Shown: positions 26,939 through 27,697 of the stretch, piece by piece
How positions within the stretch are numbered: the first letter of the stretch is position 1
Layout of the letters: each line of letters starts with the position of its first letter
UHGV virus genome: UHGV-2170543
Strand: one strand, 5' to 3'
From: a virus
DNA length: 33,672 nucleotides
The notes under the pieces: generated by a model
Databases searched by the model: none
Told to the model about the DNA's origin: nothing
The model's input: only the letters and a program-made list of their open reading frames with translations
Made by a program: the position numbers and the translations under genes

Positions 26939-27624
26939 ATAACCAGTATTTACAGTTTGTGCGTGAGCAGCTCATTATCGCCACCGCTGATTTGAGTGGG
27001 GCAACAAAAGGTCAGCTTGAAGCCTGGCAGGAGAATGCCATGTTCGATACAGGGCGTTACAGGCGTAAAAAAATCCGGTACCGCGATGAAGTGACCGGAA
27101 AAATGATAACGCGGGATAATCCACCAATCCCGGGAAAACAATCGCTGGCGAAGGGGACGTCAATTCCTCTGGTCAGTCAGGTTGCTTTTTCTACATCATC
27201 ATGGCGGCGGGCTGTTTTGTCTCTTGAAGAACATCATAAAGCCTGGTTGTTGTGGTGTTACAGCGGAAATACTTGCTGGGAGTATCAGATCGCGATAACG
27301 CAGTGGGCATGGACAGAATTTAAGACTCACTCTGGTACCAGGAAAATTGCAGGGAAGACACAGGAACGCCTGAAAAAATTAATCTGGCTGGCTGCACAGG
27401 ATGTCAGGAGATGGGTTATAGGACATGATATCTACCAGCAACAGGAGCTTGCCCGTCTGTGTGGGATTAAGCCTGACAACTGGAGCCACAATTATGTGAG
27501 CTACTGGCGTGAAATACTCGACATTTTTATGAACCTCGATACCGAATCTCTGATTTGCACTGTGAAAAGGAGATCTCAACAAAAAGCGGCATTTTTGCAG
27601 CGAGATATTGCAAAAGTCAATTAG
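26935..27624 (+). CDS. putative antitermination protein Q (larger Q82/QuuQ-like class), by position
   Basis: ATGA overlap with rusA stop; lies immediately upstream of a strong promoter + short-transcript terminator (pR'/tR'-like); sequence family not confirmed. Confidence 0.45.
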   Translation: MNNQYLQFVREQLIIATADLSGATKGQLEAWQENAMFDTGRYRRKKIRYRDEVTGKMITRDNPPIPGKQSLAKGTSIPLVSQVAFSTSSWRRAVLSLEEHHKAWLLWCYSGNTCWEYQIAITQWAWTEFKTHSGTRKIAGKTQERLKKLIWLAAQDVRRWVIGHDIYQQQELARLCGIKPDNWSHNYVSYWREILDIFMNLDTESLICTVKRRSQQKAAFLQRDIAKVN

Positions 27625-27636
27625 ATAGCATATATT
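27608..27636 (+). promoter_or_regulatory. candidate late promoter pR' (TTGCAA-17-TATATT)
   Basis: -35 TTGCAA at 27608-27613, 17-bp spacer, -10 TATATT at 27631-27636, overlapping the 3' end of the Q-like gene. Confidence 0.45.
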
Positions 27637-27673
27637 TTATGTAAATGTGATATATTGCTGTAAAGTGTATAAA

Positions 27674-27697
27674 CCCGCTCAAATGTGCGGGTTTTTT
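27674..27697 (+). terminator. Rho-independent terminator (tR'-like) about 40 nt downstream of promoter
   Basis: CCCGC-TCAAATGT-GCGGG followed by TTTTTT. Confidence 0.6.

What the first reader, a model, noticed from the sequence alone, without database searches (positions are those of the whole stretch)
27608..27697. pR'/tR'-like promoter-terminator pair directly after the Q-like gene
A near-consensus sigma70 promoter (TTGCAA-17-TATATT) overlaps the end of the Q-like ORF and is followed about 40 nt later by a clean intrinsic terminator. This is the arrangement used by lambdoid Q proteins to load onto RNA polymerase and read through tR', and it supports the Q assignment of the 230-aa protein by context. 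The kinase cassette lies immediately beyond the terminator, so it would also be read through during lytic induction.
Basis: partly seen in the sequence, partly recalled or inferred. Interest (0 to 1): 0.35.

Follow-up and report, generated by a model that had tools for sequence, protein, structure and literature searches.

The report
Prophage late-gene promoter, pause site, terminator
This is the standard late-gene switch of a lambda-like prophage of the phage-82 type: an always-on promoter, a built-in pause where the phage Q protein boards RNA polymerase, and a stop signal that only Q-loaded polymerase reads through. It is real and well conserved, but it is a textbook arrangement, not a new one.

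Summary
TTGCAA(27608-13)-17-TATATT(27631-36) overlaps the last codons of the Q gene, and a clean hairpin plus T6 follows at 27671-27697.

The promoter match alone (9 of 12) is no better than chance. The context is what makes it convincing:
- The 229-aa protein is a true Q82-family antiterminator (PF06323, 67% identical to phage 82 Q).
It sits at +6 to +14 of a transcript starting AAA at 27643, which is the published geometry of the phage 82 sigma-dependent pause element.
- The block -35, -10, AAA start and TGnTATnnT is kept in about 120 related loci, including ones whose Q is only 52-66% identical. Sequence after +17 is free to vary, and unrelated terminators occupy the same place.
- In Gifsy-1 the whole block is non-coding and lies 835 bp from Q.

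The window carries a compact allele, shared with phage 434, in which the terminator stem starts at +29, a few bases past the predicted pause. The terminated RNA would be about 55 nt.

Read-through into the kinase/phosphatase cassette is plausible but untested.

Verdict: a new member of a known kind, of low interest.

The parts
26935..27624 (+). Q gene (229 aa plus stop), a Q82-family late-gene antiterminator. The C-terminal part holds a helix-turn-helix-like motif at about residues 169-190.
   Evidence: PF06323 at 5.5e-84. phrog_304. 67% identical to phage 82 Q, X92588. RefSeq calls it 'bacteriophage antitermination protein Q'. AlphaFold model with helices H169-175 and H180-222.
27608..27613 (+). 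pR' -35 hexamer TTGCAA, lying within Q codons Ile-Ala-Lys.
   Evidence: TTGC is kept in 98-100% of 81 unique related leaders. It is conserved in Gifsy-1, where it is non-coding. It is identical in the leader of the locus whose Q equals phage 82 Q.
27614..27630 (+). 17-nt spacer AAGTCAATTAGATAGCA. It is the probable Q-binding element (QBE) and contains the Q stop codon TAG at 27622-24.
   Evidence: The QBE position between -35 and -10 is taken from PMC4914094. The spacer class co-varies perfectly with the putative recognition helix of Q in five classes. The match also holds in Gifsy-1, where the two parts are 835 bp apart. Binding itself is inferred.
27631..27636 (+). pR' -10 hexamer TATATT.
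   Evidence: The position is non-coding. Conservation across leaders whose Q is under 70% identical is T83 A100 T87 A91 T95 T100. The hexamer is the same in the phage-82-identical locus L140.
27643..27645 (+). Predicted transcription start. +1 is A at 27643 and the transcript begins AAA.
   Evidence: It lies 7 nt after the -10. Wild-type 82 pR' RNA starts AAA (PMC5001585). AAA is conserved at 83/95/81%. It has not been mapped experimentally here.
27648..27659 (+). Sigma-70-dependent pause element: extended-10 TG (+6/+7), -10-like hexamer TATATT (+9 to +14) and discriminator-like GCT (+15 to +17).
   Evidence: PMC5001585 describes the 82 pR' element with an extended -10, the hexamer before +15-17 GCC and a pause at +25. 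Conservation is TG 89/100%, T+9, A+10, T+11 and T+14 all 100%, and +12/+13 free.
27666..27668 (+). Predicted pause and Q-loading position, +24 to +26 (T-G-T).
   Evidence: Inferred by register from 82 pR', which pauses at +25/26 with a U at the RNA end and a G/C about 10 nt upstream. G+15...U+24 G+25 fits the G-10 Y-1 G+1 elemental pause consensus, recalled from my own knowledge and not looked up here. Not tested.
27671..27697 (+). tR' intrinsic terminator. The stem is AAACCCGC/GCGGGTTT (+29 to +52), the loop is TCAAATGT and the T-run is 27692-27697. The terminated RNA would be about 55 nt.
   Evidence: A terminator is annotated at the homologous place in phage 434. A terminator was found in 78 of 81 related leaders, with at least 9 unrelated stem sequences.
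27771..29275 (+). The first genes beyond tR': a Ser/Thr kinase (27771-28535) overlapping a PP2C phosphatase (28532-29275). They are downstream cargo, not part of the switch itself.
   Evidence: Pfam Pkinase at 1.5e-33 and PP2C_2 at 3.9e-14. The kinase matches PADLOC PD-T4-6 at 1.4e-34. RefSeq annotation agrees.

Best explanation
This is the late-gene control cassette of a phage-82-type lambdoid prophage.

Proposed sequence of events:
1. Sigma-70 RNA polymerase starts constitutively at pR' (-35 at 27608-13, -10 at 27631-36, +1 at A27643).
2. Sigma-70 stays on the polymerase and re-binds the -10-like repeat with its TG extension at +6 to +14. The polymerase scrunches and pauses at about +24 to +26.
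3. Without Q, the polymerase escapes and terminates at the tR' hairpin (+29 to +52, then U6). This gives a short RNA of about 55 nt and leaves the downstream genes silent.
4. After induction, Q accumulates. It binds its DNA site in the promoter spacer through its C-terminal helix-turn-helix and captures the paused complex.
5. Q then travels with the polymerase. The polymerase now ignores tR' and the further terminators before the kinase/phosphatase pair, the tRNAs, the esterase and the lysis genes.

What is shown here: the elements, their spacing, their selective conservation, and family membership of Q.

What is inferred: promoter activity, the start site, the pause position, Q binding to the spacer, and read-through.
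For: Q identity:
- PF06323 at 5.5e-84, which is the Q82 family (PMC9388147).
- 67% identity to phage 82 Q.

Geometry equals 82 pR':
- The literature gives an AAA start, an extended-10 pause element, a discriminator at +15-17 and a pause at +25 with U (PMC5001585).
- The window has AAA at 27643-45, TG at +6/+7, the hexamer at +9 to +14 and GCT at +15-17.
- A locus whose Q is 100% identical to 82 Q (L140) has TTGCAA-17-TATATT, AAATCTGATATTTTGCC and U at +25. These are the same -35 and -10 hexamers as the window.

Selective conservation:
- In 49 unique leaders whose Q is under 70% identical, the non-coding -10 keeps positions 1, 2, 5 and 6.
- The pause hexamer keeps positions 1, 2, 3 and 6 at 100%, while positions 4 and 5 vary.
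- Identity falls to 30-60% after +17.

Other support:
- The composite pattern is unique in the window and present in 120 of 138 loci.
- Terminators are present in 78 of 81 leaders with many unrelated stems.
- In Gifsy-1 the whole block is non-coding, 835 bp from Q, and still matches its Q class.
- The phage 434 record annotates a Q82-like gene and a terminator at the homologous positions.
- Further terminators lie between tR' and the holin, at 30026, 30247, 30460, 30734 and 32923.
Against: - There is no experimental datum for this allele.
- The promoter hexamers alone are at chance level.
- The -35 and two thirds of the spacer lie in coding sequence here, so their conservation in most loci is confounded. 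Only Gifsy-1-type loci remove that confound.
- The discriminator is GCT, not GCC, and +25 is G, not U. The pause may therefore be shifted or weaker than in 82.
- The spacer differs from the 82 spacer at 5 of 17 positions, and the published 82 QBE sequence could not be retrieved. QBE identity rests on co-variation between linked sequences.
- The terminator stem begins only 3-5 nt after the predicted pause site, an arrangement not examined in the papers I could read.
Confidence: 0.87

Rival explanations
1. Coincidence. The hexamers are a chance sigma-70-like match inside and after the Q coding end. The hairpin is simply the terminator that ends the early (pR) operon after Q, with no Q-loading function.
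For: The 9 of 12 promoter match is at background frequency. The -35 and part of the spacer are constrained by Q codons.
Against: The non-coding -10, the AAA start and the TG-extended second hexamer are conserved with the position-specific pattern of sigma-70 recognition in leaders of Q genes only 52-66% identical. Flanking sequence is not conserved. The block is intact and non-coding in Gifsy-1. It matches the literature description of 82 pR'.
Confidence: 0.03
2. The second hexamer (TGaTATATT, 27648-56) is the real promoter, of the extended-10 type. It would start at about 27663 and make a transcript of about 35 nt. The upstream pair would be irrelevant or a second promoter.
For: An extended-10 motif with a 5 of 6 hexamer can work without a -35. 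The motif is invariant in the family.
Against: In 82 pR' this very element has been shown to be a pause inducer in the initially transcribed region, and the RNA starts AAA upstream of it (PMC5001585). The upstream -10 and the AAA are as conserved as the second hexamer. A start at 27663 would leave no room for a pause before the terminator.
Confidence: 0.04
3. The region is mainly an antisense, CII-activated paQ-type promoter that down-regulates Q, as annotated on the minus strand of phage 434.
For: The phage 434 record annotates a CII site (TTGY-N6-TTGY) and a paQ -35 on the minus strand over the same bases. The scan lists a minus-strand TTGACT-18-AAAAAT at 27620-27591.
Against: The window reads TTGCAATATCTCGC, so the second half-site is broken. 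Only 11 of 81 related leaders have the motif. The minus-strand TTGACT lies in codons that differ between Q classes.
Confidence: 0.03
4. An additional role, not exclusive of the main explanation. The constitutive pR'-tR' RNA of about 55 nt acts in lysogens as a trans-acting, Hfq-dependent small RNA, as StxS does in Shiga-toxin phages.
For: StxS is exactly such a pR'-tR' by-product (PMC7547250). The leader is AU-rich and ends in a Rho-independent terminator with a U-tract.
Against: The leader is very short and almost all of it is taken up by the pause element and the terminator. No Rfam family matches it: the best hit is 27 bits against a threshold of 50. Sequence between +18 and the terminator is not conserved. 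No target was sought.
Confidence: 0.12

Closest known systems
Phage 82 late control region (Q82, pR'82, QBE, sigma-70-dependent pause at +25, tR')
   Same: Same Q family, with 67% identity. Same -35 TTGCAA, 17-nt spacing and -10 TATATT. Same AAA start. Same position of the TG-extended -10-like pause element (+6 to +14) and of the G/C discriminator (+15 to +17). An intrinsic terminator follows.
   Different: The spacer (putative QBE) differs at 5 of 17 positions and belongs to another class, AAGTCAATTA versus AACTGGATTA. The putative recognition helix differs to match, KPDNWSHNY versus KNWSETF. The discriminator is GCT rather than GCC. The 82-type leader has an extra hairpin and its terminator stem starts near +49, whereas here it starts at +29.
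Phage 434 Q82-like gene and its annotated downstream terminator (OL657226)
   Same: Same compact tR' allele...TGTATAAACCCGC..GGGTTTTTT, starting at +28/29. Same promoter and pause geometry. The terminator is annotated by the depositors.
   Different: Phage 434 Q is 89% identical to 82 Q and of the 82 spacer class. Phage 434 carries a perfect CII site on the opposite strand and the window does not. Membrane-protein genes follow the 434 terminator, not a kinase cassette.
Phage lambda pR'-qut-tR' and 6S RNA
   Same: Same logic: a constitutive promoter, a QBE between -35 and -10, a sigma-70-dependent promoter-proximal pause, a terminator read through only by Q-modified polymerase, and a short RNA made in lysogens.
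   Different: The Q family is unrelated (PF03589, against PF06323 here). The lambda pause element is at +1 to +6 with a pause at +16/17. The lambda leader is 194 nt, against about 55 nt here.
Shiga-toxin phage pR'-tR' leader, processed to the small RNA StxS
   Same: A short terminated by-product of an antiterminated late promoter. Cargo genes sit between tR' and the lysis genes (toxin there, kinase/phosphatase here), and the tRNA and esterase neighbourhood is similar.
   Different: In Stx phages pR' and tR' are 258 nt apart and the RNA is a proven Hfq-binding regulator. I did not check which Q family those phages use; from memory it is a different one (Q933/Q21 type). Nothing is known about this leader's function.
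Pseudomonas aeruginosa AlpA / PalpB antitermination
   Same: A binding element between -35 and -10, a -10-like pause element, a downstream intrinsic terminator, and a protein with an N-terminal ring and a C-terminal helix-turn-helix. It is the best, though weak, PDB fold match of the model of this Q: 7xyb_G, E 0.32, probability 0.90.
   Different: There is no detectable sequence similarity. It is a chromosomal regulator of a cell-death pathway, and its pause element lies at -1 to +5.

Membership tests
Q82-family antiterminator (Pfam PF06323) | The protein matches the family profile over its full length and is similar to phage 82 Q. | tested here: met
   PF06323 at 5.5e-84, covering residues 4-219 of the 220-position profile. 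154 of 229 residues identical to X92588 Q with no gaps. The family name comes from PMC9388147.
Q82-type late control cassette (pR'-QBE-SDPE-tR') | A sigma-70 promoter immediately at or after the 3' end of Q, on the same strand. | tested here: met
   TTGCAA-17-TATATT at 27608-36. The hexamers are the same as in L140, whose Q equals 82 Q. The -10 is conserved in the sigma-70 pattern. Promoter activity itself was not tested.
Q82-type late control cassette (pR'-QBE-SDPE-tR') | A -10-like pause element with an extended-10 TG in the initially transcribed region, with the hexamer at +9 to +14 of an RNA that starts AAA. | tested here: met
   AAA at 27643-45, TG at 27648-49, TATATT at 27651-56. The criteria come from PMC5001585. 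The key positions are 100% conserved.
Q82-type late control cassette (pR'-QBE-SDPE-tR') | A G/C-rich discriminator at +15 to +17 (GCC in 82), and a pause at +25/26 with U at the RNA end. | tested here: inconclusive
   The window has GCT at +15-17, with G, C and U at +15, +16 and +17. +24 is U, +25 is G and +26 is U. C at +17 is 95% conserved elsewhere. The register suggests a pause at +24 to +26, but this cannot be measured here.
Q82-type late control cassette (pR'-QBE-SDPE-tR') | A Q-binding element between -35 and -10 that is recognised by the cognate Q. | not testable with these tools
   The position is taken from PMC4914094. The published 82 QBE sequence was not retrievable. The indirect support is a five-class, one-to-one match between spacer and putative recognition helix, which also holds in Gifsy-1.
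Q82-type late control cassette (pR'-QBE-SDPE-tR') | An intrinsic terminator downstream of the pause site and upstream of the late genes. | tested here: met
   Hairpin plus T6 at 27671-97. A holin (PF04971) lies downstream in the window, and lysozyme and lysis-protein genes follow it in the near-identical E. coli 55989 locus. 78 of 81 relatives have a terminator here.
Q82-type late control cassette (pR'-QBE-SDPE-tR') | Q-dependent read-through of the terminator. | not testable with these tools
   This needs in vitro transcription or reporter assays.
StxS-like pR'-derived regulatory small RNA | A stable, Hfq-bound RNA with a seed that pairs to targets. | not tested
   Only the terminator and U-tract are seen. 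There is no Rfam match.

The most novel reading that the evidence does not exclude
The window carries a naturally minimal Q82-family switch, about 90 bp from the -35 to the end of the U-tract. Its terminator hairpin begins only 3-5 nt beyond the sigma-dependent pause site. Its Q and spacer pair belongs to a DNA-specificity class (helix KPDNWSHNY with spacer AAGTCAATTA) different from the only studied one, phage 82.

If the five helix/spacer classes are really orthogonal, the family offers a set of insulated antitermination switches. The compact allele would then be a convenient natural substrate for asking whether Q82 proteins act as a closed RNA-exit nozzle, an open question raised in PMC9388147. 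In addition, the constitutive leader of about 55 nt could have a StxS-like regulatory role in lysogens.
Probability: 0.2. Interest if true: 0.45.

Novelty: new member of a known kind. Interest (0 to 1): 0.2.

Why it matters
For annotation, it fixes where late transcription of this prophage starts and stops. It also shows that the kinase/phosphatase pair, the tRNAs, the esterase and the lysis genes all lie behind a Q-controlled terminator.

For the field the value is modest. The family-wide comparison gives a clean sequence definition of the Q82-type cassette (TTGCAA-17-TAnnTT-6-AAA-TG at +6/+7-TATnnT at +9 to +14-GCC). It also shows two leader-length classes and five apparently matched Q-helix/spacer classes. 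These could guide experiments on Q82, the one Q family that still lacks a solved structure.

Tried and rejected
- PDB sequence search with Q found nothing relevant, so no Q82-family structure is solved. NCBIfam has no model for Q.
- I tried to retrieve the printed 82 pR' sequence. The supplements of PMC4914094 and PMC5001585 are not held. A full-text search for six candidate sequence strings gave only irrelevant papers. The phage L paper discusses only the Q21 QBE. I got round this by fetching loci whose Q is 100% identical to 82 Q.
- The first related-loci run failed and was repeated.
- My first composite pattern had the wrong spacing and gave 0 hits. It was corrected.
- RNAalifold on 43 long-class leaders predicted no consensus structure, because the hairpin register differs between subgroups. 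Single-sequence folds were used instead, and these are only suggestive.
- An Rfam permissive scan of 27500-27850 gave only sub-threshold, terminator-driven matches such as Leu_leader at 27 bits against 50.
- The paQ/CII antisense reading was rejected for this window.
- The inverted repeat TTTTGCA/TGCAAAA around the -35 is not conserved in relatives and was dismissed.
- The fold search gave only a weak top hit, AlpA at E 0.32. It is used as consistency, not as proof.

Full report
**What is there.**
One search shows, on the + strand:
- TTGCAA at 27608-13.
- A 17-nt spacer that contains the stop codon TAG (27622-24) of the 229-aa ORF 26935-27624.
- TATATT at 27631-36.
- 34 nt further on, the hairpin AAACCCGC-TCAAATGT-GCGGGTTT (27671-94), running into a T6 tract that ends at 27697.

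The consensus scan lists both the promoter and the terminator. The same scan shows that 9-of-12 promoter matches are as frequent as in shuffled sequence: 15 were found against 12.7 expected. The hexamers alone therefore prove nothing. The leader RNA folds with the terminator hairpin in both the MFE and the centroid structure (-15.9 kcal/mol, z = -3.0).

**The gene in front.**
- The ORF is a full-length member of Pfam PF06323 (5.5e-84) and of PHROG 304.
- PMC9388147 states that PF06323 is the Q82 family, one of three unrelated Q families.
- tblastn finds the phage 82 Q gene itself (X92588). The identity is 154 of 229 residues without gaps.
- No solved structure shares sequence with it.
- An AlphaFold model has mean pLDDT 72 and is confident over residues 90-222. 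It shows helices 169-175 and 180-222, a helix-turn-helix-like pair.
- The model's best PDB fold match, though weak, is the antiterminator AlpA (7xyb_G, E 0.32, probability 0.90). PMC9371919 reports the same resemblance for an AlphaFold model of 82 Q.

Fourteen bases after the -10 lies a second TATATT (27651-56), preceded by TG-A. That makes it an extended -10 motif.

PMC5001585 describes 82 pR' as follows:
- The wild-type RNA starts AAA.
- The pause-inducing -10-like sequence carries an extended -10.
- The discriminator GCC occupies +15 to +17, so the hexamer is at +9 to +14.
- An AT-rich stretch follows.
- The pause is at +25/26, with U at the RNA end.

With +1 at A27643, the first base of AAA and 7 nt after the -10, the window has:
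- TG at +6/+7.
- The hexamer at +9 to +14.
- GCT at +15 to +17.

I could not retrieve the printed 82 sequence. I therefore fetched viral contigs whose Q is 100% identical to 82 Q (L140 and eight others). Their leader reads TTGCAA-AACTGGATTAAAAAGCA-TATATT-TCATAT-AAATCTGATATTTTGCCAATGTTGT. It meets every one of the published descriptors and has the same two promoter hexamers as the window.

**Is it more than chance?**
I collected four sets of loci:
- 80 viral-contig loci with Q 76-100% identical.
- 54 loci from different enterobacterial species with Q 48-77% identical.
- Phage 434.
- E. coli E24377A.

After removing duplicates there are 81 different leaders, and all have the same layout.

Among the 49 leaders whose Q is under 70% identical to the window's, conservation is as follows:
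- The non-coding -10 reads T83 A100 T87 A91 T95 T100.
- The start reads AAA at 83/95/81%.
- The TG is kept at 89/100%.
- The second hexamer is 100% at positions 1, 2, 3 and 6, and only 48% and 63% at positions 4 and 5.
- C+17 is kept at 95%.
- Beyond +17, identity drops to 30-60%.

This is the pattern expected of sigma-70 region 2 recognition, not of drift or of coding.

The composite pattern TTGC-N19-TANNNT-N11-TGNTANNNT occurs once in the window. Chance would give no more than 0.21 hits even with one mismatch allowed. It occurs once at the Q 3' end in 120 of 138 loci.

A terminator follows in 78 of 81 leaders. At least nine unrelated stem sequences are used, so the function is conserved while the sequence is replaced.

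**The coding confound.**
The -35 and the first two thirds of the spacer encode the last Q residues (…IAKVN), so their conservation could reflect the protein. Gifsy-1 settles this:
- Its Q ends early. A terminator and an antirepressor-like ORF then follow.
- The complete block TTGCAAAACTGGATTAAAACGGCTATATTTTATGTAAATCTGATATCGTCGCC… plus its terminator lies 835 bp downstream of Q, in non-coding DNA.

**Probable Q-binding element.**
PMC4914094 places the QBE between -35 and -10 and shows that 82 pR' -31 to +30 is a portable QBE-plus-pause unit.

Across the loci, the spacer falls into five classes. Each goes with one version of the putative recognition helix, without exception:
- AAGTCAATTAAAT with KPDNWSHNY (the window).
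- AACTGGATT(A/G)AAA with KNWSETF (82, 434).
- AACCGAACTGAAA with KSTWTETY.
- AAATGAACTAA-T with KTNWSQNY.
- AAGTAGATTAAAA with KNWSKTF.

Gifsy-1 Q has KNWSETF, and its displaced promoter has the matching spacer.

The N-terminal 472 nt of the window's Q are 94% identical to the Q genes of the PPompW prophages, while the rest diverges. This suggests that the C-terminal DNA-binding part and the promoter are exchanged as one module. The two parts are linked, however, so the pattern is suggestive and not proof of specificity.

**Two leader lengths.**
- In most leaders, including the 82-identical one, the terminator stem starts at +42 to +52. It is preceded by a hairpin whose 5' arm is the end of the pause hexamer plus the discriminator.
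- In nine of the 81 unique leaders the terminator AAACCCGC… starts at +28/29. These are the window, the E24377A type, phage 434 and six species-level loci.

The window therefore carries a recurrent compact allele in which the hairpin starts 3-5 nt after the predicted pause. Phage 434 is a viable phage, so the compact form evidently works.

**Occurrence.**
The identical 381-bp stretch from the Q end to the kinase start is in 30 of 5,426 complete E. coli genomes, including 55989, VR50 and 118UI. An 87% variant is in 19 more, including E24377A. All copies are chromosomal, and all are annotated as Q followed by a Ser/Thr kinase.

**Downstream consequences.**
After tR' come, in order:
- A kinase (27771-28535).
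- A PP2C phosphatase (28532-29275).
- A methylase remnant.
- Three tRNAs.
- Two STnc100 copies.
- A sialate-esterase-like gene.
- A holin.

Several more terminators lie after the tRNAs, at 30026, 30247, 30460, 30734 and 32923. Q-modified polymerase would be needed to reach the lysis genes, and it would transcribe the kinase cassette on the way.

The 70-nt gap before the kinase holds a 10-bp hairpin or palindrome and a TGtTACAAT motif. These could give independent expression.

**Rivals.**
- Pure coincidence is excluded by the comparative data.
- The second hexamer as the real promoter conflicts with the biochemistry of 82 pR' and with the conserved upstream -10 and AAA.
- The antisense paQ/CII reading, annotated in 434, fails here. 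The CII half-site is broken, and only 11 of 81 leaders have the motif.
- A StxS-like role for the ~55-nt RNA (PMC7547250) cannot be excluded. Nothing supports it beyond the terminator, and Rfam finds nothing.

**Verdict.**
This is a Q82-type pR'-QBE-pause-tR' cassette: a new member of a well-understood kind, in a compact allele and in a spacer/helix class that has not been studied experimentally. Interest is low.

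Noticed in passing
Related loci, e.g. L140:1310-1345, L010:2217-2250, L090, L092 (long-class leaders). Absent from window 27651-27671.: Most Q82-family leaders have a hairpin between the pause element and tR'. Its 5' arm is the end of the pause hexamer plus the GCC discriminator (+9 to +18) and its 3' arm lies at about +30 to +40. The arm sequences differ between subgroups (TTTGCCG/TGGCAAA, TGCCA/TGGCA, ATGCTGC/GCGGCAT, GTCG/CGAC, TGCCAA/TTGGCA), yet pairing is kept. RNAalifold found nothing because the registers differ. Single-sequence folds average -8.2 kcal/mol with mean z = -1.4. 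The function is unknown.
   Followed up: partly
Window 27435-27510 (Q residues about 168-192) with 27614-27630, and all related loci.: There are five discrete classes of the putative Q recognition helix. Each is paired one-to-one with a class of promoter spacer. The N-terminal 472 nt of Q recombine independently of this C-terminal-plus-promoter module.
   Followed up: partly
L139 (Gifsy-1, NC_010392) 866-1800: In Gifsy-1 and Salmonella phage SW-37 the pR'-pause-hairpin-tR' block is separated from Q by about 835 bp. The intervening DNA holds a terminator-like hairpin and an antirepressor-like ORF. Q has lost its usual C-terminal residues.
   Followed up: partly
window 27771-29275: A kinase/PP2C phosphatase pair sits directly after tR'. 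The kinase matches the PADLOC anti-phage models PD-T4-6 (1.4e-34), mad6 and Stk2. The phosphatase has no PADLOC hit. This may be a defence or host-takeover cassette placed where Shiga-toxin phages carry their cargo.
   Followed up: partly
window 27726-27755: A 10-bp hairpin or palindrome (AGTTGTAATA...TGTTACAATT) overlaps a TGtTACAAT extended-10-like motif, 20 nt upstream of the kinase start. The E24377A variant differs at two positions (T to G and G to C) that turn a U-G pair into G-C. This keeps the pairing but destroys the TG. It could be an operator or a 5'-UTR structure.
   Followed up: partly
window 29386-29712: Only the C-terminal third of a DNA methyltransferase is present. It is annotated as a pseudogene in E. 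coli 55989. E24377A has the full 1,050-bp gene plus an extra small ORF between the phosphatase and the tRNAs.
   Followed up: partly
window 4957-10092 (- strand): A second late region lies in mirror orientation: a Q-like gene of another family (9706-10092, phrog_79), an unknown 214-aa ORF, an AraC-type regulator (7689-8402), the same tRNA Met/Arg/Arg trio (7411-7660), STnc100, an AsxR hit (7071-7123) and a second esterase (4957-6918). The window therefore spans parts of two lambdoid prophage right arms.
   Followed up: partly
window 14867-16584 (- strand): There are two tandem copies of a C4 antisense RNA plus isrK pair (Rfam). Each lies inside or next to Ash/Rha antirepressor-like ORFs. A sok antitoxin RNA lies at 24746-24917.
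   Followed up: no
window 3834-3861, 4208-4227, 26134-26218: Runs of N (masked or unresolved sequence). The last one interrupts the DUF968 gene two genes upstream of Q.
   Followed up: yes
window 30026-32951 (+ strand): A chain of strong terminator-like hairpins lies between the tRNAs and the holin gene, at 30026, 30247, 30460, 30734 and 32923. Two of them fall inside the STnc100 copies, which fits a late operon that depends on processive antitermination.
   Followed up: no
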